Part shown: positions 6,701 through 47,613 of the stretch, one piece after another
How the letters are laid out: the number at the start of each line of letters is the position of its first letter
Position numbering within the stretch: the stretch's first letter is position 1
From: Raillietiella orientalis
Lineage: Eukaryota
Reading direction: 5' to 3'
DNA length: 64,000 bases
NCBI GenBank assembly: GCA_036172245.1
Contig: JAYWIR010000003.1
Coordinates: 6,510,001-6,574,000 of the forward strand
Notes under the pieces: generated by a model
Told to the model about the DNA's origin: nothing
Databases searched by the model: none
What the model saw: only the letters and a program-made list of their open reading frames with translations
Made by a program: the position numbers and the translations under genes

Positions 6701-9700
6701 AAATAACAACGGTTTGTACATTTTCCTGGCATGCTTCGACAGTGATATTTTAATGTAGTGACCACACGACTCGGAGAGGTTTCATTGGTTTTAACCGTTT
6801 CTCTGAAAACACTTTATGAATGAGAAATGTGATGTAGTTCATTTAGGGGTGTTACTCAGTCATGTTTTTGTTTAGGTGCAACCAGGTGACAAACGCTCAA
6901 TTTTGCTTCCCTTAGCAGAACGCATGATCACGAAATTTGTGCAAGAGGACAGAATAGAAGCTGAAGCAGAGTTACATTTGTATGTTATGGTGCTTGAATT
7001 GCAGGTAAGGTTTTATGAAAATGAATGCAGAAGTGGCAGAGATTATATCAGTTGAATAGGGAAAGTATGAAGAAGCACTGAAAGTATTGGATAGTCCTCT
7101 GGGGGAGCAGCTGTTTTCAAATGAAAATTTTTTGCAAAACAAACGGCTGGAGCTGTTGCAATTAACAGGAAGATGGAAGGAATTACTTGTGATAGTCAAG
7201 GATTCGTTAGTCAAGGAGTAAGTCTAAACAGCTAGAGTAAAGAATGCTGAAAGTAGATTGTGCTCTCCAGCTCGGATTTGTGGAATCTGTACAAGGCCTA
7301 TTTTGCAGCAATATTTGAAAGGCAGTGTTTGGAAAGTCAACCTGACAATAATGCTATGCTATGTCATTTACAAGAAGCATCCCTCTTCCTGCATCAGCTT
7401 GCAGTGTTGGAAATGAAGAAACCATATCCTGCCAGAGGTCCATTTCTTGCCAAACTGGAGTTCTGCAAATTAATTAAACAGCATGACTTGGATTGTGGGA
7501 ACTTTACGTTTTTAGGTTGTGCATTGAGCATTAAGTCAACGGAACTTATGATGTGTGTAGGTTGTGTGCCTGCTGATTGCCTGTTGAATTATTTTCGTCT
7601 GTTCTGCCATAAGCCTTGCTGTTTTGGTGATATGCAACCATATCTGTTTTTACTAGAAAAGACTGATGTGCCTAATTTCCTGCAAAAGTTGGAATTGGAC
7701 AAGTGCCGTGTTGACCAATTCACTTCAGTAAGACAAACTGCTAAAATAATCATCCAGATTTTTTAATTTCAGGAATCCGAAATATTTAACCACCTCAACT
7801 GTTTGTATCTGCATCATTATTTGGGGTACTCCAAGAAACAAACTCAGGAAGAACAGTTTCAATTTTGCAACAGCCTGTTGCATTTTAATAAGCAAACACA
7901 ACATTTGTGTCCTCCTTCTACCAGTGAAGTCAGGTATTATACCCACGGACCACAGAGCATCTGACCTGTTTGTTTTCATGCACAGAAGTAGTGATGGATA
8001 CGTTATTTTGGCAGCCCATATTTTGTTTGATTTGTGGAAGGGTACTCAAATGGATTCTTACCTCATGTACTTGTGTGCCTGTTTGGAGGATGTGCTCAAC
8101 CAGTCTCCAGCGAACCATGTCATCAAACTCATTCTTTGCCGAGTGTACAACCTGATTGGTGCGTGGCAGGGGAATCCGCCTCCCAAGTAATGTGATTGCC
8201 AGGAGCCTTTGGTTGTACCTTAGAAGTTTTTGAAAAGCTGGATGTTAAGCAGATTCAGTTAGATACGCTGGGTCATCACGTAGCTCATCATGTGGTGTCT
8301 CTAGGTCATTTCCCAGCCTCAATTGCCGTTTTTGGTAACACATTGCGTTTCTTCACATCCAATTACAAAGAAGTAAGGCCTAATCTGATTTGTTGAGTGG
8401 GTGGCATGTTACCTCTTTGCAGAGCATGGAGCATCTGTTGTCAGCTTACAAGTTCGGTGCTTTCGGGAAAATCAAGGAATTCCTTGACCTCAGGGAAAGA
8501 ATCAATAAGTCTTTGTTATACCCTCTGCTTACAGTGGAGCGCATGTTGCTGGATTTGATCATAACTTCTTCTTCTCCATCAATGAGTGCACACGTGGCAA
8601 ATTACTTGGAGGTCATGTCAGAGCAGGACTGCTTGCCTAACTGGGAGAGCTTACGAGATAACCGTGATCTGCAGGTGTTACCATGCTTTGATCCTCCAGA
8701 GAGGTAGCCAAATGGGCACATTCTACAGGGCGCATATCAGGCTTCCCGCCTATATTTAAGGCAGGCTGCAATTAGCTTTGTTGAAGAATCTTTTGCACAA
8801 GAGATCTGCTACCTACAGATTCGCTATTGGATGTTACGCTGTTTGGTAGCTTCTATTCAGTTAGGGCTGACACAGTCTACCAAAGATAACATCCCGTCTC
8901 ATCAGGAGAGCTTACAGAGGTTATCCGACATGAAGTGTAATCTAGTTAGATGCTGGCATCATGCCAAGAACAGTAGCCTCGGCAAAAAACCAGGAATTTT
9001 CTTCCCTGGTCCCTATCCATCCCACTTATGGATGCTTGTTCAGGATGAATACCTCCAGCCAGTACTCTTGTTGCTGGAAGTCATTGAGAGTGCCGCCTTA
9101 CATTCAGAAGTGGAATTCAGTCAAGACGCTAGCATCATTTTGGAACAAATGACCATGCGTCATTGCCAGAAAATTGCAGATGCTAGCCTGTCTGATCTAT
9201 CTAATTTTCGTGTGCTCTTACAGTCCCTTGTATGTTTGGTAGAAGTGAGTAAGGATGTAACTGTGATTCTGTAATTTTGTGCAATTGCAGTGTTTCAGTT
9301 TTGTTGCAATTTTATGTGGAGTCATGTACGTCATGTTCCGACCAAAGATGGCAGGGATCAAGAAGAAGAAGAAGCAAAATAAGGAAAACAACAAACTACA
9401 GCTTGTTCGTATATTGCGTGTGTATGCCTCTCTTTGAAGTGAAATTTTTGCCCTACCAGTCAGATATGCTGAAATCATTCCAAAGTGTATTAAACCAGTG
9501 CCATTCTGCAGCAGAAGTCTTGGAGTCCAGTCTTAAAGAGTTCCAATCATCTTTACACTACGAATATCTCGAAGATTCTTTCAGATCGCTGCAAATAGGC
9601 GAAGACCTCGTTTCTACATCCAAAGTACTTTCTGGAATTCATTCCAGCTTTTGCGTTTCCTTGAAAGAAATTCATCAACTTCTACAATTAAAGATTAAAT

Positions 9701-9723
9701 ATTTTTCGTCCCTCAAATATTAA
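768..9723 (+). CDS. NAA25: N-alpha-acetyltransferase 25, NatB auxiliary subunit (psidin/MDM20 orthologue), 5'-partial. Exons: 768-853, 3501-3639, 3715-3908, 6876-7004, 7060-7217, 7271-7515, 7561-7727, 7773-7933, 7986-8158, 8203-8372, 8423-8703, 8761-9244, 9291-9404, 9460-9723
   Basis: Peptides LDNGSNKKALQEAEKVLKK..CAK/VLKA, PTDDATLQAMSICYKEMH, EEFLTHLFMSYVRLGQYKKQQQIAMMLYKLKPKNPYYFWAIMSIVMQ, LPLAERM..EDRIEAEAE, KPCCFGD, LDVKQIQLDTLGH and AYKFGAFGKIKEF match metazoan NAA25. All introns are GT-AG with consistent phases, giving about 921 codons in the window ending at TAA 9721-9723. The first coding exon was not found in 1-767. The 7516-7560 and 9405-9459 introns are the least certain. Confidence 0.95.
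5980..6480 (+). mobile_element. Highly decayed piggyBac-type transposase fragment inside an NAA25 intron
   Basis: Broken-frame peptides in piggyBac order: WNEGIPQVR (cf. LW..GIP.FR), EFRERLRCCTF (cf. RF.EILRCLRF), IWDHYLQ (cf. IWD.F..NC), VD..LGKCS (cf. VDE..FRGRCS), IVKLMV..ITTSNF (cf. VVK.LV..ITTDNF). Many stops and frameshifts; no TIRs identified. Confidence 0.45.
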
Positions 9724-10855: not shown

Positions 10856-11493
10856 CCCCAGAAGGGATGTGACGCGACGACCCAAAATGACCCTCCGCCC
10901 TGGTCAGCGCTGCGACAGCACGCCGTTCCAGCTGCCTTCCGTATGGCCTGCAGCCGTGAGAATTGGTCGGTCTGGTTGCACTTTGTGCCCGGCTGTGCCG
11001 CCTACGACACCTTCTTACGCGTCACATTCGTACCCGTGGCCTCTCGTGATGAAATTTTCACACGAAGAGCTGACGAAGGGCGCTGCGAAGGTGCAATCGG
11101 GAAGGATTCGATTCATCTGATGAAGGCCGAGATGCAGACGGCGGAAATTCGGAAGCAGAGAGCGTGCAGGAGGACGAAATTCCAGCTAATGGATGTGGAA
11201 AACGTGAGCCCGATGCACGAAAGGAAAAAAGAAGAAGAAAAAAGAAGTCATTTGTTGGCAGAAAGGGATATCAATGGCATCGATCTCCATTTCACGCCAA
11301 ACAAACTCTCACCCTAAATGGAAATATGGCGGCGGCAGACGTGCCTGGACCGAAAGGAAACGCAAAAAAATTTGCCAAAGAACGAAAGGCACGGAAATCA
11401 TTTTGCAATGATGAAAATGACACACGCGGCTGCCGAGTTTTCAAACGGAAGAGGGAAGCGAACAATCGCGGAAGTATAAAGCAGCACACTACC

Positions 11494-11526
<33 letters not shown>

Positions 11527-12085
11527 GAAGAAGAAGAAGAAGAAGAAGAAAGGCACGAATGCGTGGCGTCCCCAAGAATCATGGATCGAGCACTTGTGAC
11601 CTTTGGCCTGAGCGGCTCGGGATTCCGGTATTTCGAGTAGCGACGACCGGGGAAAAGATTCCCATTCTGTGTAAGTCGCCTCCGGTTCGATGGTGGACCG
11701 ATCAGGGCCGAAAGGCAAGCTGCAGACGAGTTTGCAGCAACCGAGAGATCTGTGGAGTGGATTTATTAGTAACTGTCGCACTTCTTGCAGTAGTCCGAGT
11801 GAATGCACCCCGCTGTCCCCTCCGTTCGCGGGGACGCCGTTCGGCTTCCTCTTCGAGGAGGGAAGGGAAAAGTGCATCCGTTGCAAGAAAGTCCGATGAC
11901 GAAGGCCCTTATGTTGGGAGTGCGTAAATCACCTATAAAACAGTTTGTAAAGATCATTGTAATCCATTGACGTAAAGGAAAAAACGTTTGTGAAAAACTG
12001 TGGGATTTTTTACCATTTCGATTGGTGCCCCATGTGGCACCGCGTGACCATTCGTGCACAAAACCGTCACGTTACCCTTCCGGGG
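10856..12085 (+). mobile_element. Internally deleted, non-autonomous piggyBac-family DNA transposon (~1.23 kb) carrying a transposase pseudogene
   Basis: Left end TCAA|CCCCAGAAGGGATGTGACG (10852-10874). Right end CGTCACGTTACCCTTCCGGGG|TTAA (12065-12089). These form imperfect TIRs with a TTAA-type target site. Inside, across frameshifts: acidic N-terminus from ATG 11049, FVGRKGYQW..PGPKGNAK, GVPKNH..DLWPERLGIPVFR, KRFPFCVSRLRFDGGPIRAERQAADEFAA, RDLWSGFISNCR, then directly the C-terminal Cys-rich domain CIRC..CWEC..VCKDHC. Confidence 0.85.
11494..11550. repeat. Compound (GAT)n(GAA)n microsatellite inside the piggyBac fossil
   Basis: Directly visible trinucleotide runs. Confidence 0.95.
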
Positions 12086-13535: not shown

Positions 13536-16500
13536 GACGTTTCTTTTAAAAAATTTGCAAACATACATGTGTAGGGCCCTCGGCCCTTGGCAGCGGAGGG
13601 GGAGGGAAGCAAACAAAAAATAAGAAAAAGTATATACAAAAATTGGGAGGGTTAGGGAAAGGATCACCGGGTGCCTGGAGGGCGTCTCGGTGACGCCCTC
13701 CAGCACCCACGACGCTTGGTGGCGCCACGCCCGGCGACCGTGACCACATGGCCTCCGACGTGGGCCACGGAGCAACCCACAATTATCGACGTCACAGCGA
13801 TTCCCCGGCTTAGCGAACGGCACCCCCTCGACCCCGGGTGCACATTCCGGTGCACACACGCTGGTACGCACTGCGACTCATCTGTCCGTACGCCGGAGCC
13901 ACGACGGGCGATTGCGTACTCGATGACCCCGTCACCTCCGACCGGCCCTCCTCAAACGAATGTACGGTGAAATCCACTTCAACACGAAATTTAACGTTCG
14001 TGCATGCAAATTTAGCTACTGTGGCCCACTCCCGACCCTCTCCCCCTTCCCCAGAACTTCCCGCCACGCTTCATCGGGAGCGAGAAGCGAACGCTGGAAA
14101 GTTTCGTTCTTCGCGGATCGCCAACTGCCGGGCGACCAGTGCGCGGGCAGTTTTGAGAGCGTAGCCTCGCCGCAGCGGACCCTCCCATGCGTAGAGGGGG
14201 TGAGAGTGGCGCTGGGGGGAAGCAGCGGGAAGGAGAGACTGACGCTTCGAGGTCTCTCCTTTGGGAGCAAGGCTGCCGGACCAAGGTGGGAACTGGGAGG
14301 AAGTGCGTCCTGGAACACGCAGTTGCTGCACCCCTGCGATCCGCCAGAGAGGCGCGGCGCGCTTGGAAGGCTTCCTGCTCGGGGAAGTCGCCGTCGCCTG
14401 CGCTGTGCCGAAAGGGGTGGCGCAGAGGACGAGCGGCGTACGGGCGCGCCCAGGTTTCTTGCCTGGGCACTCATTATAAAAATAAAAATACGTTGTGGTG
14501 GTAGAACAGTTGGTTCTACCACGTTCAAATGTTCTTCACCACTTGCCACCTGGGGTCCGATGCGGGGACGCAGGGAAGTTGGAGTTTATCACTGCGTGTT
14601 TTGCGGCGTCCCGTTCATCCCATGGAGGACGCTGGCGAGTTGGTGTTTTTTCCATTCCTAGATGGTGCCATCTCGCGGCGATCCCCAGAAGGAGTTTCGT
14701 CCGGTGGGTGGCAGCTCTGTGGTCAGCTTTTCAGCCAACGGTTGCCAAGCTCGCGGCTTGTGGAAGCGCCTCACGCACGAAGAGGCGCTTCACAACGGCT
14801 CTGGGGTTGCTACCGGGGATCCGAAGGGCCGTCGAGAGAAACGTTCCCACAGGGGCCGGAGGACAACACAGTCAGGAGTTAGACGCAAGACGGTCCCTCC
14901 TTCCCCTCCCCTGGGTCTAGTGGTAGAGGCGGGCTTTGCATTGAGGGATGCCCCGATGCAAGACCAGCAGCGCCGACTCTCGCCACTCGAGAGGGGGGGC
15001 GCGGAGGTCAGAAGGAGGTGTCTCTTCGCCGTCGCTTCGAGGGAAACTCCCTGGGCAGGCCGCCGCGCCTGGGCCGCCGAGGGCTCCGCAACAGGGGAGG
15101 CGATTGACAGTGCCGCCAGTCGGGTGCCTCCCTCCGTGCCCTGAGTGGAGGATCCGCCCGACGGGGCGGGTAGGAAGGTGCGGAGGACGCAGGGTAGGGG
15201 AGGGGGGGCTCCCGACGGCCTTTCACCTTCCCCGCGGCAACTCCGTGCCATCGCACGGGCGATGCCATGAGCATCGTCCGTGAGCGCAGCGAGCGGCGGA
15301 CGTTTCCAGGGGATCCGGCGGGTCTTCGCCCGACCACGTGCGCGCGTCGCGCACCCCGCCCCCCCGCGTCCCGCTGGTCGGCGACGGCTGGTGCACACTG
15401 AGCCGGGGAGGGGGGCATCCCTTAGGGCGACAGACCACGATTGCCGGAGCGACTCGCTGCCGCGCGGAGTCGGAGAGCGCACGTCACGTGACGCGATGAC
15501 GAATCCTCTGCGTCGTCACTACGCAACGGATCGGGAAACGGAGTGCCGTCGTACATCCGCGGATACCACAATCCACTACCACTACTACTACTAATGATAA
15601 TAATTAATAGCAATAATGATAATAAGGACAACATCGCACGTGCCTATCGGATCCGAATTGATTTTTGTTTTCCCCCTTTTCGTCGTCCACACCCTTTGCG
15701 CGCAATCCCCCGACGCTGATGGGAACGATTGCGTATCCGCTCCAGATCGACCTGGCTCCGTAGAAGACGCAAGAAGAGTCCCCTCCCCCCCGCTCCTCAT
15801 TCCCTTCCTCTCCTTCCGCCGTTACCTTCGGCCGTCTCCGTGGTGCCGGGCGGATTTCCACAGCGGTATCCTCCGTTGTCGGGACCGATCCCGCCGAGGA
15901 GTGCAGTCGGTGTGGGCCGCGCGGCCCCTGGTAGGGGGAGGCAGAAAGGTTGCCACGCACCGGGACAGGCGGCAGATCGCGCGCGGGCAAAGAAAAAGTG
16001 CCGACCTGGTCAGCGGTGACCGGGGGCTGGCAGGCGCTGCGCTTCCCTACAGCCGCGGGTCCGGGCGCGCGGTGGTGCTCAGAGGGATGGGAGGGGGAGT
16101 GTCCCAGAAGATCCCTCCTGTCTCAAGAGGAACCGGAAGGGAGGCAACCGGTGGATGGCGGCGGACCATGCCACCTCGCTCTGCCGCCTCCGCCCGTCAG
16201 GACGCTCATCGCCTCTGACGATCCCGTCGGCGCCGGCGCCTGAGGAAGGCGGCGGAAGCTGGAAACGGGTCGTGATGCTGGCCTTTGGAGGAAGGAAGGG
16301 AGGAAGGGGGGGAGAAGGAGGAAGGGAGGCAGAGGAAAGAAAGGAGGAGGAGGAGTCGCAGAGGATGCAGAAGCGTTCGAGATGGCGCTGTGGGGACGCC
16401 GCTTAAGCGTGGGAGTGGAATTGCCCAGGGCAGACGTCCACCTGGGTCGGATTGCTTCCTGCGTCGGCGTGCCCAGCACGACGATGGTAACCTGGGCGAC

Positions 16501-17009
16501 GTTGCCAACAGCCACTTGGGGTCGTGATTTGTCTCAAGGGACCGAAAGCGGCTGAGTCTGAGGACCACTCCGCATGCTTCAGGGGTTTCTTCGGCTCGAC
16601 CTCTGCCTTCCGTGGCAACGAACTCGCAGGGGAGGAAGACGGTCGCCGAGAACGACGCCCGCGGGCGCTTCCGTCTGCCCTGCAGCCTCCCACCTCCTCC
16701 GTGGCGCCTTCCGGGCGGCTGCGGTCGCAGGAACACCTTGGAGGCCGGAATGGCTCCCGAGAGCCGCTCTTCCCGGCTTGGGATGTCACGGAGGTTCCTC
16801 GCCCCACGGGGGCGCGCCGAATGCGCCCCTTAGGCGTTTTCCGTCTCCCGTGTGAACCCCAGGCGGCAGCGTTCCCCGTTGCCGAGCGGCGAGGCAGTCG
16901 ATCTTCCCCTCCCTCGCTACGCAACAACGGGGCGTCGACATGGAAACGAAAAGAGGAGGGAAGGGTCTCGGAGAGAGGAGCGGCAGCGGAAGAGAACCTC
17001 GCGCGGTCC

Positions 17010-18531
17010 ATGGCTTTCCTCCGGCTTCTCCTAGTCCTCGTCCATATGCCTCTCGGCACCGGGCAGAAGCCTCGAGGCGCCGCCGGCCCCGCCTCCGCGG
17101 TGCCTTCCCCTGCTGCCGCAAAGCCCCCCCCAACCATCGCAACGCCCCCCTTAACCGCCGCAACGCCCCCCCCTACCACAACTGCGCCCCCTCCACACGC
17201 CGCAGCGCCCACCCCCGTCACAAAACCTCCCCCTGCGGCGACACCTCTTCCTCCTGCGTGGACGGCCCCTGGCCCTGAGGGCGCTCTCGAGAGCAGGAAC
17301 GAGGGCCGGAAGATCCTGCAGCGCTGTGTGCTGGTGGTGCTGGGCTGCAGCATCGCCTTGGTTTCGGTGCTCAACGCCGTCTCCAAGGCGATATCCTACC
17401 GCCGGCAGAAGCGGCTGGTGGCCAGCCGCAAGTGCGTGACGGACGCCGTGGGTTCGGTGAGGGGAAGCAGGGGGTCTGAGAGCGCCAGACTCCCACCCGC
17501 CCTCCCCAGAAATTCATGCGACACTTCGTCCTGCGGATGATGACCGACGACGAGCACTCCCAGCTGCTGATCCACATCATGACCTACCTGGGCGTGGACT
17601 TCCACTGTGAGGCGTTTAAGAGCTTCCAGGAGGCGCGGAGGCATGAGAACGGTCAGTCCACGGCGAAACCCCTTCCGCCCGTCCGCCTCGTTTTCTCCCC
17701 GTCAAACCCTTCCTCTCTTCCGCGGCGGCGAGAAGGAGCTGCCGGCGGAAGCGTCGGGCGCGCCGCCGTTTCTCTCGGGAATTTTCGAGGAGGGAGGAAG
17801 GAAGGAGGTGGAGAAGGAGGAAGAAGGGATAGAAAACGGGGAAGAAGGGGGGAGCTGTGCCACCCTCAGGGGCGGCGCGGGATTCCCCTCCCTTCTAGCT
17901 CTCCCCCACGGGCAGATTCCCTGCCTGGTCCTGCGGAGCAACTTCTCCCTCGCCCACTTCGACGTCATCCTGAGGTTCCTGGGTGCGGAGTACGACTTTT
18001 ACGGGACGACCAACCTGGAGCGCGCCTACTGCGACCTGCTCTTGGACAAGATGCTCTTCGTCCTGCAGGAGTTCCCCAAGTGCGCCTCGTGAGTGCTCCC
18101 CGCCCCTCCTTCCGCCCTTGACCCCGTCTGGCTCCCAGGAGGGTCAAGAAGGACATCCTGTCGAACCCCATGAAGACGATCGGGGAGGAGACCGGGATGT
18201 GAGCGAGTGGTCCCTCGAGGGGGGAGCTGACCCTCCTTCCCGCAGGTTCTTCGGCGGGCTGACCGAGAACGAGCTACACCTGTTGAACCAGCTGTCCTCC
18301 TCCCTGAAGCTGCCGGCCATCATGAAGCACGTGGAGCAGACTCTCGCGAGAGGGGCCCAGTGGGCGGAGGAGCGCCATTGGCTGGTAGGGACCAACATGA
18401 CCGCTGCGGACGTCATGGTCGCCTACGCCCTGTCCAAGATCGCCAAGGTCGTCTCCTCCCTCTTCCACAACTACCCGGCTACGGAGAAATTCGTGGACAG
18501 GGTCCTCGCGAAGCTGCACTGGACCATCTGA
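17010..18531 (+). CDS. Predicted type I membrane protein with mucin-like ectodomain and cytoplasmic GST-fold (sigma-class-like, probably non-catalytic) domain, 374 aa. Exons: 17010-17456, 17510-17651, 17899-18088, 18139-18198, 18246-18531
   Basis: GST part: IMTYLGVDF, LPHGQIPCL (cis-Pro loop), ILRFLGAEYDFYGTTNLERAYCDLLLD, WLVGTNMTAADV (N-capping box), HNYPATEKFVDRV, joined by phase-consistent GT-AG introns of 247, 50 and 47 nt (well supported). Upstream exon encodes MAFLRLLLVLVHMPLGTG, a P/T/A-rich stalk, ILQRCVLVVLGCSIALVSVLNAV and RRQKR. It joins in frame through TCG|gtgagg (17457) to ccctccccag|AAA (17509), a 53-nt intron (moderately supported). Confidence 0.78.
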
Positions 18532-19703
18532 GGGACCAGCAAGGGGGATCCCCGCCCCTTCCCCGGAAGAGAGAGGGGAAGGCGGCGGGGCCAGTAAAGG
18601 AGAAGGAAGGCTGTCGTGAAGGAGTCCGTCTAGAAGGGAGAGGAGCAAAAGGGGGCTTGCCGGTCTCCCGGTGGTTCAGTCGCGGAGGGGGACCTCCGCC
18701 CCTTTCCCTTACGCCTGCCCCCAAGTGGGCTCCCCCCCTTTGCCTCTTAAGCGACTGTCCTCTGGCAACCCTGACTGAGGTGGAAAGAAGAAGTCATGCG
18801 GCGTCGCCCTCTGCCCTCTGTCGGCCTCCAAAGACGAGCCCCTTTTTGGTGAGAGGAGGGGGGGAGGGCGGGTCGTGAGGGTTCCCCCGTGGGCGATCTC
18901 CTGCCCCATTGCCTGGAGATGGCAGCGCGGGCCAGAGAGCAAGGCGCCGTATCCCCCTGGGGGCGGGGTGGGGTCGGAACATCCCTCCCTGCCTTGATCT
19001 CCGACCCAGGACGTCTGGCCCCTTACGCGCGCGCACCGAGGGAACGGTGGCCCGGCATGGAGGACGAAGAGCTGCCCAGCACTTCGGGAGCGGCAAGGGG
19101 CAGGGCTGAAGGGGTGGAGCGCACCACCCCAAGGTCGCGGACGTCCGAAAGGGACCGTAGTCGCGGCTCCCTTTCGGCTGAAGGAGATTCCCCTCTGTGC
19201 ACCCGGTGCTGGGAGTGGAGATGGAGCGAGTCTCCTTCCTCCAAGGGTCGGCGCGGGTAGCCTCCCGGTCCCTTGATGCCGAGCGTGGCAGCGCAGGGGG
19301 TCAGTGGGAGGAAGGGGATGGGGCGTGGGTCCTCGGGCGGCAGGGAAAGTAGGGAAGAACTCAGAGCTGATCCGATTTATTGTGCAGGGAGGCACGGGCG
19401 TCGATATCGAAAGGGTAGGGCGTGGGGGCCGACGGGCGGCTCTCCTGGAGTCCCGAGGAGTCGCCGGCGGACGCCAGGCGACGCTCTCGCGGTTCTGACG
19501 GGGAGAGCGAAGGTCTTCATCCTTCGGGAAAGAGTGCGTGGATAATAGGGAGTTAACCCCGCCCACGATGTGTCGCCGCAGCTCTGAGGTCGGGGAGCCA
19601 AGGGCGTGCAGGCACAAGGGGGGGGAGAGCAGCAGGAGGAAGGAAGAGGGCGAAGGAAACGGAAAGGAAGGGTCAAAGGAAGGGGCAGGAAGAGGACACC
19701 CCC

Positions 19704-22700
19704 TCAGGCGCGTTCCGAACCGACGAGGTGCTTCCCGGAGTCCAGTGAAATCTTTTGGTGCAACGTGGCGTCGTAATTGGCGCACAGGTAGCTGGCGGCG
19801 GCGGCGGCGGCCGGGTGCACGCTGGAGGTCGATCTCGCCTCCAGGGAAATCACATAGGGTGCCACCGCGACGTGCGGTACCTCCGCGGCCGCGGGCTGGC
19901 ACCTCCTGGCGCCTCCTCCGTCGGGAGCTTGACAGGGCGCGGAGAGTCTCCTCGTGCTGGCGCTCCTGCTGGGAGAACAGCGGCGTGCAGAGGGGACTCC
20001 TCCTCCTTTGGCTGGAAGGAAAGAAGAGAGGCGTGGGAAGAGCCAAAGTGTACAAAGGCGACGCCCCTTCCACGGCACTACTTCGGCTCCCAGAGGAAAC
20101 GGATTCCCCCCCCCCCCCCTCTTAAACCCCAAACCGAGAAGATGATGACCGGAGTATCCCAGAAACGGAGTAACGCGGGGCAGGGCTGCCAGGCAGCTCG
20201 AGAGCGAACGAACGAGAGGGCGTTTGGAGCACTTTCCGGAGTAGCGGTGGAGAGGGAGGCTCGTTTGGCAGCAGAATTTCTTGAGCGCTTTCAAGAGTTC
20301 ACATCCTTGGACCGGAGGCCAATGGGAAGGACGTCGTGACGCACCGTTGCTCTCGTGTGCGTACGGAGGTCCGTTGGGAGATGACGGATGCTCATAGGGG
20401 TGAGAGTTACGCAAATGGAATGCGCTTCGTATGTGCACAGGGGACGGGAAGGGGGAGGGGAAGGTGGGGACCCGCTCACCCTCAACCCTCGGCGAGGCGC
20501 CTTCCGAGCCACAGGGGACGTCAGAGGTGAGTCTTGCACCGGCCCTGGGAGGGTACGACAGGCCCGTCTTTTCCCCGTCTTTTCGATTCCCGCCGAAGCA
20601 TGTGCTCCGAGTTCCGGGCCTTCGCACCTTGGAATGGCGGAAGAGGCTCTCACCTTGGGGCGGCTGCTTTTCTTTGAACGCTTGGGGAGACTCCAAGCAC
20701 GCGTCCTTCTTGGCCACACCTTTCGGTTTCCTCTTCCGGGTCTGTATGCCATCTTTCCTCATCGTCAGTGGTCTGTTTATGCCGTGCAGCTTGTAGTAAA
20801 GACCGCAGGCGTTGCACACGGGTTCTCCCTCGTTGTTCCTCCTCCACAGGGTCGTATTCGAGATACCACAGTTGACGCAACACAATCCAATTCTTCTGGA
20901 ACACACCTGGAAAGGCGAAAGACACGGAAAGAAGTTAATTCCGGAAGAGAGAGGGGAAAAAAAGGGGAAAAAACGCAAGAGGCGTCATGCAAGAAAGTGT
21001 GGTCTCCACTGAGATTGCTAAGAATGAACACACAGTCTGTGTTTCGTTGCCCCGAGAGGGCTCGCCTTGTGCCCCCATCGAAAGAGGGCTGGAAAAGGGT
21101 AGCCGAGCCTGCCAGCCAGAAGCGAGGGGACGAACATTTTGTGCCCCCAACACACACTCTTCGGTGTTCCGATGCAACCGGCGGCTGCATGAAGAATGTT
21201 CTTGTTGCTACAGCTGCCGCAGACCAGAGGGGTTTCTTACCAAAGAAGCAAAGATATATTAAAAAAAAAAAAAACAAATAAATAAAGGGAAAAGCAAAAC
21301 AAGAGAAAATCCAGCAGCAAAGAGGTTTCCAAAAATGGAGACCTTACATTGCGAGATCACACGCACGCGCACTCACAGACACAGAAAAGTGGAAATCCGG
21401 TTTGCACATCGCGGAGGTCGTTGCAGTCGTCGCCAGAGGGGCCGCCCTCTCCGTTCTCTCTGCAAGGGACTTCGTTTTCCCGTGTTCTGGGAACGAGGAG
21501 GAGCGAGAAGGCACACTGGGCTTTTGGCTTGCCGATCTTTGAGCTGGCCCTTCTGGAACATCTCTAGATACTGAGATCTCTTCAGACTCTGCTTCGAGCT
21601 AGTTTCTGGGTATGGCCACGCGCCAACCTCCTGCGCGCGCGTCCACTGTCCTTAAGAAAACGCAGTGGACTTTTCCTTGCCGACTCTTCTGGTCAGGTCG
21701 CACAAAGTGCGCGGGCTTTCTTGCTTCAAGGACGGAAAGGACCAAGCGGAACAGGGAAACCGTCAAGCATTCAACGGAAGTCGATAGGGAACTGCTCTTT
21801 CCCTGGAAGATTGTCTCAAGAAAATCCAGCGCTTCCCGGAGAGCATCATCAACTCCTTACTCCATAATGAAGAGAGGGAGAGAGAGAGAGGGGGGGGGGG
21901 AAGCTTGTAATATCAAAGTCCTGCTACTAAATCGGTTATCCCTTCTCGCATTTCCCCCTGGTCATTTCTCCCCGACTAGGTTTCGGATCATCGTTTCCTT
22001 TCCCTTCTCAACTAACCAATCCACATAAAGCACACTCGCACATGCGCACACGCGCACACACACGTACACGTACATATATGTAGTACCATGCGGCTATGCG
22101 ATGAAGCCAGATGTCATGCGTACGGATGTTGCGTTTAGCCTATTTGACCGCGGCGCGCCAGAAAATCGTAGGCTTCCGCCTGGGGGTGTTTTCGGCGAAA
22201 ATAGTCGTTCCGCCTGGCGCAGCCATTTTGCTGGTTCCCTGGAAGCGCCGGCAAGTCAGTCTTTGCGTCCCATGCTTGAAAAACTTGGGAAACATCGCGG
22301 CGAATCACAACGGGGAATAATTACATTACATTATACGGCGCGAAACACGGAACGTTATTCTGGCCCTGGGATGCGTTGCCAGTTCCGGGGGGTTTCCACT
22401 TCCGTGTGTTGCAATGCCTGCTGCTTCCTGCGGTTTCAACAGACTTCCCCGAAGACTTTGCTTCTCGAAGACTTTGCCGCCACCACGAGTCCGCGCAAAG
22501 GGTTCTGCGGAGACTGCGTTCTGCCGGACACGCTGGTGCGCCAGCGTTGGCCCTCGTGATGGACGGGGTCGCAGGCATTCTAGAACGGGCCGGCAGGGGA
22601 GAAGCGGCGCAGCTGGAATGGAACAGGAAGATGTGCAACCAGTTCTACATCCTGGATTCTTGGTGTCCGTGGCAGACTCTCCACATCCGCAGGCGCTCCC

Positions 22701-25700: not shown

Positions 25701-28575
25701 TGAGGGGCCATCCGCAGCGAGGCAGCACCGCCGCAGCAGGAAGGCTGGACGCGTCCAGCCTCCGGCGACGACGACACGCGCGAGGGTCCGCATTCTGGAG
25801 GACCGGAGTCGACCTCACCCTATCTCCGCGCGTGTAAAGGTAGTGGAGAGGGAGGAGCAATGACGCACGCCCTGTGCGCGCAGCACGCATCCAGGACCGG
25901 GAAATCCAAGAGCGCCAGTGGCAGCAAGAAGAAAAACGGACGAGAGCAGCAGGGATAATGACAATGATGATGATGAGAGTACGAACAGCGATGACGAGAA
26001 CAAGAACAAGAAGAGTGATGGTGACGACGGAGAGGATAGCGGCGCAAAAATGGCACGACGACTAGCAACAGACTTGGCGGCGCCGGTCGTGGCAACGGAA
26101 GCGGCACCGGCAACCATGGCGGCAGCGACGGCGAACACAGCGCTAGCATCACAAAACCCATTAAATTACTATCAGAAACCCAGGAGCCACCGTGATGATG
26201 GATGCGAATCGGAACAAAGAAAAGAAGGCACCTGTAATAATGCTGGTGGCTGCAGCGGCGGCGCCAGAGGTGATGGTCATTGTGAAGAAGAGAAAAGGAG
26301 TAGCAGCACAGCAACATCGAGGGAGATGGCAACAACATCGGAGAAAGCAGAAGACGAACGCGCAGATGACGGAAGCGGAGGCCGGCAGACGCCGCAGAGG
26401 AGTAGCGCGGCACCGCCAATCGCAGCAACGCCAGCGGACAGCGGCGCCAGCAGTGGCAGGGGGAACAGCAGTCGCGGCAAACGCAGCCTTACCAGTAAGG
26501 GAGAGGGGAGGGGAAAAGGTAACCGTGGCGACGGCTGAGAATCGAAATCCATCATCGATGGCTCTCGTTTGTGGGGTGGTGACGAGGGCTGTTACAATAA
26601 TCGCTAGCCGGGATGCAAGCAGTGGCATAAATGATAAGGACAGCGTTCGTGGTGGCTAAGGTGTGGCGTGAACACGGTTCCACGCCACCCGCGGAGTGTA
26701 CGTGCTCGAGATAGGGAAGGCATATCAGGAGGAATGGGGTCCCCGCCCTACGAATCCAGAAAGGCTCGGAGTGCGCTCTTCTCACGTTTGGCGAGGGGGG
26801 ATCGCACCTCCCACCTTGGTTGTCTCCGAAGGGAAATCCCTTCCTCATTCTCTCCGGAGGGGGCAACCCGGAAGGGGGTGGTCCTCTCCATTTCATCTAC
26901 TCCGGAGGGAACCCGCAAGGGAACCGCTCCTGTTCACTCCTCTGAAGAGAACCCAAAGGGACGCTTCCGAAATTCGGAAGGGGCGCTGCAGCTTCCCGCA
27001 GGAGGATTCCTTGCACTCTTCTGGAGAGGCGGCGACTCGGAGGGGTCCCCCCGATGTGGGGGATCCAATCTCCGTTGTACGACCGGAGGGGGAACTCCTC
27101 ACTCCTTGGATTCCTGGAAGGACCCGAAGGTCGACTCCCATTGTTCCGGCCTTCATCGGGGGGCCTCCGGCTTTATCCACCGCCGGTGCCACGCCCGAAT
27201 GTCTCGGCCAACCAGCGCCATTGCAGGAGAAACTCGGAAACCAACGACGCAGTGGTGTCAGTTTCTGCCAGAGTATTCGAACCCGCGACGCACGGTGCCA
27301 CGCGCGGAAGCCTTAACCACAAAACCTCCGACGCGGGCTCGCAACCTCATGGACAGCTGTCCATGAGGTTGCGAGCGACCGTGGGGAGGACGTATCGAGG
27401 TAAACGGCCAGGATCACGCCGCCGTTAGCGGCGGCGGCAGGAGGGCTGGGAAGGCGGAGGAGGGAGGAGGCAGCGCGGTGATGGAGGCAGGGAGAGCGGC
27501 GACGGCGCGCAATCTTCGCCCTGCACGCCCCTGGGGTGCTGAAGAAGCGCATGGTGCTTACCAGGCGCTTAGAGGTCTTCACGAGAGGCCGGTTCATGCC
27601 GTTCATCTTGTGGTACAGCCCGCAGGCGTTGCACAGGTAGTGGCCCGTCCCGTCGCGCCTCCACAGGGGGGTGGAGATGGCCCCGCAGTTGACGCACTCC
27701 CGCTCCTCGCTCAGGTAGTCGCACCCGGGGTCTGGAAACGCGGGAAAGGGCTGTCAGCGCCGTCGCCGGGGAGACGGAAGGGAGCAAGCAGAAGGGGAGG
27801 CCACCTCCAGATGGGGAGAGCATTGGGGCCGCTGTTTGCCCTCTGGAGGTGCTCGAGAGAGAGGGGCATCTGACCCCATCCTTTCATCTCCCCCTCCTCC
27901 CTAGAAGGAAGCGACGCGAAGCGCTCTGCCCAAACGCACCCCATCCTACTGGCGGCGGCTGGGACGCAGGGAACTTGGACTGCCCTCCCTGCGGCGGAGG
28001 CAGGGGTCGTCACGGTGAATTCCCCTCTTTTCCCGAGGCCGCGTGAAGACCTCTCTCGCCTCTTTACCCGCCAAAGGAGGCCAGAGAGGCTCATTCTTCC
28101 CATCTTTCCGGGAGCGGGATCAAGGGGGAGGAGGCTGCTGGGCTAGAGAGGGGAGCGTGGGCGCGCACACGGTACCGTAGAGCGCTCTCCTGTGGAAGTA
28201 GTCTCCGTCGTAGGGCCTCCACGCCGGGAAGTGGCCATGTGGCGGGGGGAAGGGACAGGGCGCCAGGCTGGAGGCGCCCCCGCCCGGGAATGGCAGCCGC
28301 GTCGTCTGGAGGGCGGGAGCGCGGGCGATCTGGTGGGCGCCAGAGAAGTGGAACTCGGCAGGGGCGCCTCCCGGCAGCACCCACGGGAAGGACGGCGGCG
28401 GGTGGGGCGCCGGGCCGCTCCCATTCGCCGTTGCGGTGGCAAGGGTCCCGCCGGAGGGCGGGACTTCGCCCTTGAGATGGTAGGGCTGCGCCCCAGCAGG
28501 TTTGGGGCCGCCTGAGTAGAAGGGGTTCTGCTGGAAGCCGGTCGTGGGAACGCTGCTGATCCCCGGGGAGTACAT
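19704..28575 (-). CDS. pnr: GATA4/5/6 family transcription factor, pannier orthologue, two zinc fingers, 376 aa. Exons in transcription order: 28575-28176, 27731-27562, 20906-20654, 20011-19704
   Basis: N-finger [46 protein letters not shown] and C-finger [59 protein letters not shown] are pannier-type. The upstream AWRPYDG..FHR motif resembles insect Pnr. GT-AG junctions have phases 1/0/1 and the CDS is 1131 nt. An acceptor at 28622 implies an upstream 5' exon; a candidate donor lies at 33325. Confidence 0.92.
22640..22850 (+). mobile_element. Possible decayed GIY-YIG endonuclease (Penelope-like) fragment in the pnr intron
   Basis: Broken-frame LGV..APYVGK / T..RCL followed by [17 protein letters not shown], loosely like GVY.IPC..YVGET.R.L..H. 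Weak pattern recognition only. Confidence 0.25.
26697..27335 (-). mobile_element. Dispersed repeat copy 2, tRNA-derived SINE-like, in the large pnr intron
   Basis: Similar to 12943-13535. The minus strand begins GGTTTTGTGGTTAAGG (A-box/D-loop-like, 27326-27311) and then GCGGGTTCGAATAC (B-box/T-loop-like, ~27286-27273) at tRNA-like spacing. Confidence 0.78.
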
Positions 28576-37822: not shown

Positions 37823-38922
37823 AGCAAGGCCGTGGAAGTCCCCCATGCCTTCGCCACCGCTGCTGTGCAGGGAGGGGTACACCCCGGCGCTCGGAGCGTG
37901 GGGGAAGCCGTAGGCCACGTTGATGGACGGCAGGGTCACCGCTGAGATGAGGGCCTTCTCCATGATGTCGTTCTTGCCGTAACAGGGGACCTCCGAGATC
38001 TTGAACTCCTGGTTCACGTGGTCCAGCTTGGGGAGGCAGTAGGCGTACTCCGCCTTGACCTGGTACTCGGACTGGTCGGCTGCTGCTGCTGCCAGCTGGT
38101 GGTAGATCAGGGAACGCGTTCCGCTCCCGTTCTCCTGGTGGGAGTCCAGGTTCTCCAGGGACGCGTAGCTGCTTCCTTCCTCCTCGCTGTCGTTCTGCAG
38201 GTCGAAGGACTGCAGGTTCTCCAGCTTGATGAACGAGGGCTCCTGAAGCGCCCTAACGCTGCAGCCGCCCCCCACTCCGCCCCCCCCCAAAAGGGGAAGC
38301 TTGCTGTGCAGGGGGGACGGAGTCGACACCGCCGACGCCGCCTTGTCCCCGCAGCTCAGCTGCAGGATCTTCTTCTGGTACAGGTGGACGTCGGCTGGAT
38401 CGCAGAACCTGAGGATGTTCTTGAACGCCTCGCGGGAGGGCAGCTCTTCGGCGCTGTCCTTCGATTCGAACTTGGCCCCCGACCCGGGGCAGCGCCCGGT
38501 CGCGAGGTAGACGGAGGCCTGCTCTTTCGCTGTCTGGGCGTCCGCGGGAGCCGCCTTCGGTCCCTGCTGGCCTCTGTCACACGGCTCGTCGAGCGGCGAG
38601 GGCTTGTTGCAGGCGAACAGGATGGCTCCGCCCCCTTGGGCTTCTTTGGCGATCCCGCCTCCGTAGTCGTGGTTCGGCTCGATCCTGGAGGAGTACGGGG
38701 ACTTGGTCGCCTCGCGCAGGTGCTGCTGGTGCTGGTGGTGCTTCGTCAGGACCTTCGTCTCCCTGCGGTCTCTCTTGGCCGCCGCCTCCGCGCCTGAAGT
38801 GGCGTACGTCTTCGAGTCGAAGATCACGTGGGTGATGTATGGCTGGCCGGGCTCCTTGTAGCCGGAACCAGAGTGCTGTCTGCTCCTCTCTGCGAAATCC
38901 TGGACTCCGGGAGGGAACCGGG

Positions 38923-47474: not shown

Positions 47475-47613
47475 CCTACTGGCATTGTTGCTGTACACGA
47501 TCTATTTTGGGAAGCGCACTGCTAAGCCTACTGGCATTGTTGCTGTACACGATCTATTTTGGGAAGCGCACCGCTAAGCCTACTGGCATTGTTGCTGTAC
47601 ACGATCTATTTTG
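47475..47613. repeat. Minisatellite, 52-bp unit, about 2.7 copies
   Basis: CCTACTGGCATTGTTGCTGTACACGATCTATTTTGGGAAGCGCACyGCTAAG starts at 47475, 47527 and 47579 (third copy partial). Confidence 0.95.

What the first reader, a model, noticed from the sequence alone, without database searches (positions are those of the whole stretch)
17010..18531. Receptor-like fusion: signal peptide, mucin stalk, TM helix and cytoplasmic GST fold
Seen: the 17010-17456 exon encodes a hydrophobic N-terminus (MAFLRLLLVLVHMPLGTG), about 70 aa of Pro/Thr/Ala-rich sequence, a hydrophobic stretch (CVLVVLGCSIALVSVLNAV) and a basic stop-transfer (RRQKR). A phase-0 GT-AG intron of 53 nt, typical of this genome's introns, joins it in frame to a complete GST domain. 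Established: sigma-class GSTs are soluble ~200-aa dimers; known membrane GST-fold proteins (GDAP1, metaxins, mPGES-2) are organelle-anchored and lack a mucin ectodomain. Inference: a cell-surface type I protein using a GST fold as an intracellular dimerisation or signalling module. I do not recognise this architecture from any described family, and the ORF track splits it into unrelated pieces.
Basis: partly seen in the sequence, partly recalled or inferred. Interest (0 to 1): 0.85.

Follow-up and report, generated by a model that had tools for sequence, protein, structure and literature searches.

The report
Membrane-anchored GST-like orphan gene
A small five-exon gene in an unidentified animal genome most likely encodes a single-pass membrane protein whose cytoplasmic part is a degenerate glutathione-transferase fold, an unusual combination that so far has no known relatives and no expression data.

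Summary
The described features are in the sequence. Exon 5 passes Pfam's GST_C_3 and GST_C cut-offs. Exon 3 matches only GST-family chains in the PDB, weakly.

The membrane helix and its basic tail share the GST exons' extreme codon bias: 53 of 57 codons end in G/C. The bias stops at the proposed donor, and the 53-nt intron is the only intron-like pair available there. I put the helix-to-GST join at about 0.8, unproven.

The first 92 codons (signal-like start, Pro/Ala/Thr repeats) use codons like non-coding DNA. I put the signal peptide plus stalk at about 0.6. With 18% Ser+Thr it is hardly a mucin.

The GST part has Phe where the glutathione-binding Ser sits and no Tyr near its start, so it is probably non-catalytic.

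No relative appeared among 1.84 billion representative proteins, in metagenome contigs or beside 80 GATA loci. No RNA run was listed.

Verdict: a new variant of membrane-tethered GST-fold proteins, of moderate interest.

The parts
16940..17278 (+). Upstream ATG in another frame, in good context (G at -3, G at +4). It opens a 113-codon frame that overlaps the proposed start codon. It would compete with the 17010 start if transcription begins upstream of it.
   Evidence: ATG positions; ORF 16856-17278; sequence.
17010..17063 (+). Proposed start codon and signal-peptide-like segment (aa 1-18): Arg5, a Leu/Val core, Pro at -5, Gly at -3 and -1.
   Evidence: SP-like starts occur in 5 of 348 control ORFs. 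Codon bias is weak, with 13 of 18 codons ending in G/C.
17064..17285 (+). Pro/Ala/Thr-rich segment (aa 19-92). It includes a 21-nt (7-codon) tandem repeat, 4.8 copies, at 17115-17216. This is the putative extended ectodomain, and its coding status is the least certain part of the model.
   Evidence: Composition; tandem repeat; repeat units in frame. P/T/A codons end in G/C in 31 of 55 cases here against 113 of 129 in reference exons (Fisher 8e-6).
17286..17324 (+). Juxtamembrane segment (aa 93-105), where strong coding-type codon bias begins.
17325..17381 (+). Transmembrane helix (aa 106-124).
   Evidence: Kyte-Doolittle 19-residue mean of 2.53; coordinates. Codon log-odds of +0.41 bits per codon only in this frame, out of six.
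17382..17456 (+). Basic stop-transfer cluster (contains RRQKR) and cytoplasmic linker, ending at the donor.
   Evidence: In 17286-17456, 53 of 57 codons end in G/C.
17457..17509 (+). Intron 1: 53 nt, phase 0, GTGAGG...CCCCAG.
   Evidence: If read through, the frame ends at 17540 and the read-through codons drop to background (18 of 27 end in G/C).
17510..17651 (+). Exon 2, covering the first ~45 residues of the GST-like domain. An in-frame Met at 17516 lies two codons after the acceptor.
   Evidence: 42 of 47 codons end in G/C. No Pfam or PDB match on its own.
17652..17898 (+). Intron 2: 247 nt, GTCAGT...TCTAG.
   Evidence: Only this acceptor keeps the frame.
17899..18088 (+). Exon 3, holding the GQIP loop, strand 4, helix 3 and the start of helix 4 of the GST fold.
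   Evidence: All 60 PDB sequences listed are GST-family chains (including prostaglandin D synthase and S-crystallin), best E 0.012, aligned to their residues ~46-117. 59 of 62 codons end in G/C.
18089..18138 (+). Intron 3: 50 nt.
18139..18198 (+). Exon 4: 60 nt.
   Evidence: 19 of 19 codons end in G/C.
18199..18245 (+). Intron 4: 47 nt.
18246..18531 (+). Exon 5 with the stop codon: the C-terminal helical GST domain.
   Evidence: Pfam GST_C_3 E 7.2e-7 (29.8 bits, cut-off 21.6) and GST_C E 2.2e-6 (28.2 bits, cut-off 20.7). PDB mu-class GST E 0.037 at its residues 123-183.
18593..18598 (+). AGTAAA, a possible polyadenylation signal 62 nt after the stop.
   Evidence: It is a motif match only.

Best explanation
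This is one gene on the + strand with five exons (17010-18531), encoding a 374-aa single-pass membrane protein.

Shown:
- The five exons splice into one open frame through four canonical short introns.
- The last exon is a GST C-terminal domain.
- The membrane-helix exon is real coding sequence in that frame.

Inferred mechanism:
- The signal-like N-terminus (aa 1-18) directs insertion into the ER.
- A repeat-derived Pro/Ala/Thr-rich segment (aa 19 to ~100), probably extended and possibly O-glycosylated on its Thr runs, ends up on the luminal or extracellular side.
- The helix at aa 106-124 spans the membrane. The basic cluster after it holds the rest in the cytosol.
- After a ~27-residue linker comes a 223-residue GST-like domain.

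The GST-like domain keeps fold determinants: the GQIP loop with the conserved cis-proline, and the T-A-A-D capping motif at helix 6. It has Phe in place of the glutathione-binding Ser at helix 3, and no Tyr, Ser or Cys in its first dozen residues. It therefore more likely works as a membrane-tethered binding or dimerisation module than as a conjugating enzyme.

The Met retained two codons after the intron-1 acceptor suggests descent from a soluble GST gene that captured an upstream membrane exon. A soluble isoform starting at that Met remains possible.

My odds: helix joined to the GST-like part about 0.8; signal peptide and stalk translated as modelled about 0.6; the whole statement about 0.5.
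For: -: the frame is intact, 374 aa, with introns of 53, 247, 50 and 47 nt, all GT-AG.
- exon 5 passes the Pfam gathering scores for GST_C_3 and GST_C.
- exon 3 aligns to residues ~46-117 of sigma and alpha GSTs; exon 5 aligns to ~123-185 of mu GSTs. Both are collinear with a ~210-220-aa GST.
- the spliced model aligns collinearly across exons 3-5 with an eEF1B-gamma GST unit and with a GST_C_3 protein (identified). The alignments include the T-x-x-D motif.
- the fraction of codons ending in G/C is 53/57 in the helix and tail. In exons 2-5 it is 42/47, 59/62, 19/19 and 86/94, against 0.65-0.72 GC in introns and flanks. The bias ends at the donor, since the read-through tail gives 18/27.
- only the model frame of 17286-17456 scores positive (+0.41 bits per codon) out of six frames.
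- there is no ATG in any frame between 17050 and 17515 (3.0 expected). The helix can therefore only be translated from 17010 or 17046, or from an upstream exon.
- intron-like pairs occur 0.28 per kb per strand, and the only three in 16900-18600 are the model's.
- hydropathy of 2.53, with more positive charge on the C-terminal side of the helix.
- signal-like starts are rare (5 of 348).
- the repeat period is 21 nt, a multiple of three.
Against: - No transcript evidence: no RNA run was listed.
- No relative anywhere, so conservation of the join cannot be tested.
- The first 92 codons use codons like non-coding DNA. The signal segment has 11 of 16 informative codons ending in G/C (Fisher 0.027). 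P/T/A codons of the stalk have 31 of 55, against 113 of 129 in reference exons (Fisher 8e-6). Their log-odds are negative in every frame.
- C-rich minisatellite DNA translates as Pro-rich in all three frames.
- Differences among the repeat units are not concentrated at third codon positions (my reading of the units printed).
- An upstream ATG at 16940, in better context, opens an overlapping frame.
- C7-C8 homopolymer runs in the stalk could hide assembly frame errors.
- The GST domain begins at a Met two codons after the acceptor. That is also what a 5' leader intron before a soluble GST would look like.
- Exon 2 has no detectable similarity to GSTs on its own, and Pfam GST_N was not hit by any piece.
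- The fold of the whole domain could not be predicted. The single-exon model had pLDDT 55.
Confidence: 0.5

Rival explanations
1. The helix-to-GST join is real but the N-terminus is not as modelled. Translation might start at the second in-frame ATG (17046). The helix exon might be fed by an unseen upstream exon. Or the Pro-rich minisatellite might be read in a different frame because of homopolymer errors. The helix would then act as a signal-anchor, giving a membrane-tethered cytosolic GST-like domain without a cleaved signal peptide or stalk. This is the arrangement I recall for mPGES-2 and FAXC.
For: - Codon usage of 17010-17285 is non-coding-like, while 17286-17456 is strongly coding.
- The switch is sharp, near 17280.
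- An alternative frame over 17069-17275 has 69 codons with high G/C at the third position.
- C7-C8 runs are visible.
- The competing ATG at 16940.
Against: - No acceptor with a pyrimidine tract lies near 17280. AG sites at 17296 and 17321 sit in purine-rich context.
- No other intron-like pair exists in 16900-17300.
- No coding-like segment lies on the + strand between 10 and 17 kb apart from short, weak ones.
- The signal-like start at the first in-frame ATG is unlikely by chance (5 of 348).
- The repeat period is a multiple of three.
Confidence: 0.25
2. The GST-like protein is soluble, 223 aa, and starts at the ATG at 17516. The upstream exon is either a 5' leader whose open frame is a separately translated upstream ORF, or a separate small membrane-protein gene that ends by read-through at 17540.
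For: - The GST-like domain starts exactly at a Met. About 45 residues precede the conserved GQIP loop, as in ordinary GSTs. This is inferred from the collinear PDB alignments and the model.
- The acceptor lies only 6 nt before that ATG.
- There are no ATGs in 17050-17515, so a transcript starting there would yield only the soluble form.
Against: - The helix segment has full coding-type bias, which ends at the donor rather than at the read-through stop (53/57 against 18/27).
- A separate gene would overlap the GST start, with no room for a promoter or UTR, in a locus where neighbouring genes lie kilobases apart.
- The only intron-like pair in the interval is in frame. I estimate the chance of that at about 0.01.
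Confidence: 0.17
3. The gene is not functional. It could be a decaying lineage-specific duplicate, or an assembly artefact that happens to keep an open frame.
For: - No relatives in any collection searched.
- Loss of glutathione-site residues.
- No expression data.
Against: - All four introns are canonical and the frame is intact over 374 codons.
- Codon bias far above the local base composition is maintained in exons 2-5 and in the helix exon.
- Fold-determining motifs are kept.
Confidence: 0.05

Closest known systems
Soluble Tyr-type cytosolic GSTs (alpha/mu/pi/sigma, including haematopoietic prostaglandin D synthase and nematode sigma GSTs)
   Same: - Pfam GST_C_3 and GST_C on exon 5.
- Exon 3 aligns to their GQ(I/L)P loop, helix 3 and start of helix 4.
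- Domain length of 223 aa, with collinear exon order.
- The T-x-x-D motif at helix 6.
   Different: - They are soluble proteins of about 200-220 aa without a signal peptide or membrane helix.
- Here the helix-3 Ser that binds glutathione is aligned to Phe, and the preceding Gln to His.
- No Tyr lies in the first 12 residues of the domain.
- The class cannot be assigned, since the best E-values are only 0.012-0.04.
mPGES-2 (PTGES2) and FAXC: GST-fold proteins with an N-terminal hydrophobic anchor
   Same: A hydrophobic helix N-terminal to a cytosol-facing GST fold. I recall this arrangement for both proteins. PMC10452860 (passages read) lists FAXC among human GST-fold proteins as a metaxin relative, and its Figure 1 legend mentions putative transmembrane helices.
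   Different: - No sequence relation was detected. Pfam gave only generic GST_C families.
- Those proteins have no cleavable signal peptide or Pro-rich ectodomain, and they sit on Golgi or mitochondrial membranes (recalled).
GDAP1 and metaxin-1: tail-anchored GST-fold proteins of the mitochondrial outer membrane
   Same: A GST-like domain tethered to a membrane by one helix, with degenerate or blocked glutathione sites in the metaxins (PMC10452860 passages).
   Different: - Their helix is C-terminal.
- They carry insertions between helices 4 and 5.
- Here the helix is N-terminal and preceded by a signal-like segment, which points to the secretory pathway.
Secreted glycosylated sigma GSTs of Onchocerca (OvGST1, OoGST1)
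   Same: A GST with a signal peptide and an N-terminal extension. I saw the abstract of PMC6939172 in the listing, and the rest is recalled.
   Different: There the whole GST is secreted. Here a membrane helix and a positive cluster lie between the extension and the GST-like part, which should stay cytosolic.
Drosophila GstS1 (sigma GST with a Pro/Ala-rich N-terminal extension)
   Same: A Pro/Ala-rich N-terminal extension before a sigma-like GST. This is recalled and was not checked in any call.
   Different: That extension has no signal peptide or membrane helix, and the protein is cytosolic and catalytically active (recalled).
GST-like N-terminal domain of elongation factor 1B-gamma
   Same: It is the best-scoring hit among 1.84 billion representatives: P0001, a four-unit concatemer with EF1G, GST_N and GST_C domains. 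It is 40% identical over 40 residues around helix 5-6 and 26% identical over 173 columns.
   Different: - No EF1G domain is present here.
- The high score comes from four repeated units.
- The likeness is at the generic GST-fold level.

Membership tests
Cytosolic GST superfamily (GST fold) | C-terminal all-helical domain (Pfam GST_C families) | tested here: met
   Exon 5 scores GST_C_3 29.8 bits (cut-off 21.6) and GST_C 28.2 bits (cut-off 20.7).
Cytosolic GST superfamily (GST fold) | N-terminal thioredoxin-like domain (GST_N) with the cis-Pro loop | tested here: inconclusive
   No Pfam GST_N hit for exon 2 or exon 3 alone. Exon 3 matches only GST-family chains in the PDB (60 listed, best E 0.012) with GQIP aligned to GQ(L)P. 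Exon 2 has no match. The spliced domain could not be submitted to Pfam or to structure prediction.
Cytosolic GST superfamily (GST fold) | Helix-6 N-capping box (S/T-x-x-D) | tested here: met
   T-A-A-D in exon 5 is aligned to T-I-A-D in P0001 and T-W-A-D in P0003. The role of this motif is recalled.
Catalytically active Tyr-type GST (alpha/mu/pi/sigma) | Catalytic Tyr at the end of strand 1 | tested here: inconclusive
   There is no Tyr, Ser or Cys in the first 12 residues after the Met at 17516. However, no tool aligned exon 2 to a GST, so the position is inferred from length only.
Catalytically active Tyr-type GST (alpha/mu/pi/sigma) | Gln-Ser pair at the start of helix 3 that binds the gamma-glutamyl group of glutathione | tested here: not met
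   In both printed alignments (4q5f, 1yq1) the Gln-Ser pair is aligned to His-Phe of the query.
Sigma-class GST | Closest sequence relatives are sigma-class members over the whole domain | tested here: inconclusive
   Exon 3's top hits are nematode sigma GSTs and alpha GSTs. Exon 5's top hits are mu-class. All have E of 0.01 or weaker.
Type I single-pass membrane protein | Cleavable N-terminal signal peptide | tested here: inconclusive
   A crude test only: a 9-residue hydropathy window up to 2.86, Arg5, Pro at -5, Gly at -3 and -1. This is rare among control ORFs (5 of 348). Codon usage is non-coding-like. No SignalP was available.
Type I single-pass membrane protein | One hydrophobic helix with more positive charge on the cytoplasmic (C-terminal) side | tested here: met
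   Kyte-Doolittle 19-residue mean of 2.53 at aa 106-124. The flanks are printed: seven Lys/Arg and one Asp within 24 residues after the helix. Before it there are four Lys/Arg and two Glu.
Mucin-like stalk | High Ser/Thr content (commonly above a quarter of residues) in tandem repeats that carry O-glycans | tested here: not met
   Ser+Thr is 13 of 74 (18%), with Pro 25 and Ala 19. There is a 7-residue repeat with 4.8 copies. Glycosylation is not testable here, and the threshold is recalled.
GDAP1 / metaxin / FAXC | Tail anchor, or insertions between helices 4 and 5, and family-specific Pfam models | tested here: not met
   The helix is N-terminal. Pfam on exon 5 lists only generic GST_C families and Arc1p_N_like, the latter below its cut-off.
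MAPEG (microsomal GSTs) | Four membrane helices and no GST fold | tested here: not met
   Only one window run above 1.6 on the 19-residue hydropathy scan, at aa 101-110 start positions. A GST_C domain is present.

The most novel reading that the evidence does not exclude
This would be the first example of a secretory-pathway type I membrane protein that carries a catalytically dead GST fold as its cytoplasmic domain. A signal peptide and a repeat-built Pro/Ala/Thr stalk would lie outside. A helix containing Gly-x-x-x-Ala and an Asn, residues that could favour self-association, would span the membrane. Inside, a GST-like module would dimerise or bind a ligand or partner at the membrane. It would have arisen in one poorly sampled animal lineage, by capture of a membrane exon in front of the start codon of a soluble GST gene.
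Probability: 0.4. Interest if true: 0.65.

Novelty: new variant of a known kind. Interest (0 to 1): 0.4.

Why it matters
GST folds have repeatedly been reused as non-enzymatic interaction modules, for example in elongation factors, tRNA-synthetase complexes, CLICs, metaxins and GDAP1. The membrane-bound cases I know of sit on organelles, facing the cytosol. If confirmed, a single-pass protein of the secretory pathway with a GST fold as its cytoplasmic domain would add a new context for this fold.

It would also be a clean, datable case of exon capture. The ancestral start codon is still visible two codons after the acceptor.

Its weight is limited for three reasons. It is a single orphan gene without known relatives. 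There is no expression evidence. The ectodomain part of the model is the weakest.

Tried and rejected
- **Whole genome:** none is held, so paralogues outside the window could not be sought. There are none inside the window.
- **Homologue searches, all blank:** exon 5 against longer proteins, a 336-aa exon of the neighbouring GATA locus, and a NatB-subunit exon.
- **Representative library with exon 5:** 4 hits at E up to 0.001. P0001 is a concatemer of elongation-factor-1-gamma units. P0002 and P0004 are repetitive and were not analysed further. P0003 is a double GST_C_3 protein.
- **Atlas look-ups:** no usable lead and no taxon.
- **Metagenome contigs:**
  - Exon 5 gave no relative.
  - The GATA finger exon brought 80 loci. 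None holds a GST-like or helix exon (best tblastn E 2.0). Only the finger exons are alike at the DNA level.
- **PDB with exon 2 and exon 1:** nothing meaningful.
- **Rfam:** no family.
- **Earlier findings of this scan:** nothing.
- **AlphaFold2 of exon 5 alone:** mean pLDDT 55.3, four helices. This is too poor for a fold search, so none was run.
- **Whole-domain tests:** the spliced 223-aa or 374-aa protein could not be given to Pfam, structure prediction, fold search or complex prediction, because joined sequences are not accepted. Whole-domain tests are therefore missing.
- **First splice model:** the version with acceptor 17915 broke the frame and was dropped.
- **Antisense reading of the helix segment:** rejected. 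The minus-strand frames score -0.26, +0.10 and -1.10 bits per codon, against +0.41 for the model frame.
- **Paper searches:** no description of a type I membrane protein with a cytoplasmic GST fold turned up. One search was swamped by papers that use GST as a fusion tag, so this is weak evidence of absence.
- **Organism:** it could not be named.
Full report
**What is there.** The region 16400-19200 was read directly and its splice-site candidates were listed. The introns are 53, 247, 50 and 47 nt, all GT-AG. A first attempt with the acceptor at 17915 broke the frame. Only the acceptor at 17898 works, and it places the GQIP loop typical of GSTs right after the junction.

All quoted peptide elements are present:
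- a hydrophobic start, aa 1-18;
- a 74-residue Pro/Ala/Thr-rich stretch (P 25, A 19, T 11, S 2);
- a hydrophobic helix at aa 106-124;
- a basic cluster containing RRQKR.

**The GST part.**
- Exon 5 alone passes Pfam's curated cut-offs for GST_C_3 (E 7.2e-7) and GST_C (E 2.2e-6).
- Exon 3 alone gave no Pfam hit. Against the PDB, all 60 listed sequences are GST-family chains (sigma, alpha, mu, prostaglandin D synthase, S-crystallin). The best E is 0.012, aligned to their residues ~46-117.
- Exon 5 aligns to residues ~123-185 of mu-class GSTs (E 0.037).
- Exon 2 has no detectable match.
- The pieces are thus collinear with an ordinary GST of about 210-220 residues, whose first residue would be the Met at 17516.
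- In a script, the spliced model aligned collinearly over exons 3-5 with one unit of P0001 and with P0003. Pfam identifies these as an elongation-factor-1-gamma concatemer and a double GST_C_3 protein.
- Class assignment ('sigma') is not possible at these scores.

Two observations bear on activity. In both printed alignments, the Gln-Ser pair at the start of helix 3 is aligned to His-Phe. From established GST biochemistry, this pair holds the gamma-glutamyl group of glutathione in alpha/mu/pi/sigma enzymes. In addition, the first 12 residues after the Met at 17516 hold no Tyr, Ser or Cys, although no tool aligned that part. The GQIP loop and the T-x-x-D capping motif of helix 6 are kept. I read this as a conserved fold with a degenerate glutathione site.

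**Is the membrane exon really coding, and is it joined?** This locus has an extreme codon bias. The table counts codons ending in G/C.

| Segment | Codons ending in G/C |
|---|---|
| Exon 2 | 42 of 47 |
| Exon 3 | 59 of 62 |
| Exon 4 | 19 of 19 |
| Exon 5 | 86 of 94 |
| 17286-17456 (juxtamembrane, helix, basic tail) | 53 of 57 |
| Read-through tail 17457-17537 | 18 of 27 |

Introns and flanks are only 0.65-0.72 GC.

- The segment 17286-17456 shows the same bias as the GST exons. The binomial probability is 1.7e-6 at 0.66.
- A codon log-odds score trained on the other exons of the locus is positive for this segment only in the model frame. It gives +0.41 bits per codon, and the other five frames range from -1.10 to +0.10.
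- The bias ends at the proposed donor. If the intron is read through to the stop at 17540, the tail falls to the background level shown in the table. The bias resumes in the frame that splicing predicts.
- Donor-like and acceptor-like pairs 40-70 nt apart occur 0.28 times per kb per strand in the GC-rich 52 kb. In 16900-18600 there are exactly three, all used by the model. From this I estimate the chance of an in-frame pair in this ~100-nt gap at about 0.01.
- Short introns of this size are normal here. Two introns of 45 and 57 nt separate ORFs that match successive parts of the NatB_MDM20 profile at 7.2-8.2 kb.

I put the helix-to-GST join at about 0.8.

**The weak part: signal peptide and stalk.**

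Evidence against:
- The first 92 codons do not share the bias (13 of 18 and 46 of 74 codons end in G/C).
- Restricted to Pro, Thr and Ala codons, the stalk has 31 of 55 ending in G/C, against 113 of 129 in the reference exons (Fisher 8e-6). The signal segment has 11 of 16 against 608 of 683 (Fisher 0.027).
- The stalk holds a 21-nt tandem repeat (4.8 copies) made of C-rich DNA. That DNA reads as Pro-rich in all three frames.
- The differences among repeat units printed are not concentrated at third positions.
- An ATG at 16940, in better context, opens a 113-codon overlapping frame.
- C7-C8 runs could hide assembly frame errors.

Evidence for:
- No ATG in any frame lies between 17050 and 17515 (3.0 expected). 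A translated helix therefore needs a start at 17010 or 17046, or an upstream exon.
- No acceptor with a pyrimidine tract lies near the point where the bias begins.
- No convincing coding segment lies upstream on this strand.
- A signal-like start of this quality was found in only 5 of 348 ATG-started control ORFs.
- The repeat period is a multiple of three.

I put the modelled N-terminus at about 0.6. With 18% Ser+Thr, 'mucin' is not the right word. It is a Pro/Ala-rich, probably extended segment with a few Thr runs.

**Topology.** The helix scores 2.53 on a 19-residue Kyte-Doolittle window. This is the only run above 1.6 in the model, and a value reached by 73 of 77,718 six-frame 19-mers. Seven Lys/Arg follow it within 24 residues. 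Four Lys/Arg and two Glu precede it. By the positive-inside rule, the GST-like part is cytosolic whether or not the signal peptide is real. Which membrane it sits in is unknown.

**Context.** The window is from an animal-like genome that I could not name.
- A NatB auxiliary-subunit gene lies at ~3.4-9.7 kb on the + strand, in AT-rich, CpG-depleted DNA.
- From ~10 kb on, the DNA is 0.5-0.73 GC with CpG near expectation.
- That GC-rich part holds GATA zinc-finger exons on the - strand. A pattern scan found them at 57097-57171, 34876-34950, 27622-27696 and 20805-20879, and Pfam confirmed the last two.
- The GST-like gene is convergent with the nearest GATA gene. AATAAA lies on the - strand at 19381, and AGTAAA on the + strand at 18593.

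**Relatives.** None were found. Exon 5 found nothing among longer proteins. It gave only four hits at E up to 0.001 among 1.84 billion representatives. Of these, one is a four-unit elongation-factor-1-gamma concatemer, two are repetitive sequences not analysed further, and one is a double GST_C_3 protein at E 2.9e-5. Metagenome contigs gave no relative. The 80 contigs fetched through the GATA finger exon hold no GST-like or helix exon, and they resemble the window only in the finger exons. Two neighbouring genes also found nothing by the word-based search, so the lineage seems absent from the protein collections. Conservation of the architecture therefore cannot be judged. No RNA run was listed, and no genome is held.

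**Comparison with what is known.** The GST part belongs to the GST-fold superfamily. GST_C is met and the N-domain is probable. It fails one defining feature of active Tyr-type enzymes, the Gln-Ser pair.

- Membrane-tethered GST folds are known. I read passages of PMC10452860. It lists GDAP1 and GDAP1L1 with a C-terminal membrane domain, and metaxin-1 with a C-terminal helix and a blocked glutathione site. It also lists FAXC as a metaxin relative.
- From recall, mPGES-2 and FAXC carry an N-terminal hydrophobic anchor.
- Secreted sigma GSTs with a signal peptide and N-terminal extension exist in Onchocerca (abstract of PMC6939172 in the listing).
- A Pro/Ala-rich extension is recalled for Drosophila GstS1.

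What is not described in the searches I ran is the combination of signal peptide, ectodomain, membrane helix and cytosolic GST fold. One search was confounded by GST-tag papers.

**Verdict.** The most likely reading is a lineage-specific single-pass membrane protein with a cytosolic, probably non-catalytic GST-like domain, born by capture of an upstream exon in front of a soluble GST's start codon. It is a new variant of a known kind. Interest is moderate (0.4), because it is a single orphan without transcript or comparative support and because its most unusual part, the ectodomain, is the least secure.

Noticed in passing
window 57097-57171, 34876-34950, 27622-27696, 20805-20879 (all - strand): Four GATA-type zinc-finger exons on one strand within 37 kb. 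They comprise three C-finger-like exons and one N-finger-like exon, which suggests three GATA factor genes in tandem. The N- and C-finger exons of the nearest one lie 6.7 kb apart, whereas in metagenome locus L014 the two finger exons lie about 200 nt apart.
   Followed up: partly
window ~3435-9723 (+ strand): A NatB auxiliary-subunit (NatB_MDM20, NAA25-like) gene lies in AT-rich DNA (GC 0.34-0.43) with CpG observed/expected of 0.37-0.57. At about 10 kb the window switches sharply to GC 0.5-0.73 with CpG near 0.8-1.0. This looks like a methylated housekeeping gene next to a long unmethylated developmental-gene domain.
   Followed up: partly
window 37859-38866 (- strand): A 336-codon open segment has strong coding-type bias (0.89 of codons end in G/C). 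It lies upstream of the 34.9-kb GATA finger exon. It has no Pfam family and no relative in the word-based protein search, and is probably the fast-evolving N-terminal exon of a GATA factor.
   Followed up: partly
window 16940-17278 (+ strand): An ATG in good initiation context opens a 113-codon frame that overlaps the proposed start codon of the GST-like gene. Over the C-rich repeat, this frame has high G/C at third positions.
   Followed up: partly
window 47468-47613; 59021-59107; 11492-11550: A 52-nt tandem repeat (2.8 copies, 95% matches), a CCT/CCTCTT microsatellite (29 triplets), and an (ATG)n(AAG)n run that reads as poly-Met then poly-Lys.
   Followed up: no
loci L001-L080: The JGI and ENA metagenome contigs fetched with the GATA finger exon are eukaryotic fragments of GC 0.31-0.52 (first 20 checked). 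They share only the ~150-nt finger exons with the window, at 75-86% DNA identity. None is a close relative of the window's organism.
   Followed up: partly
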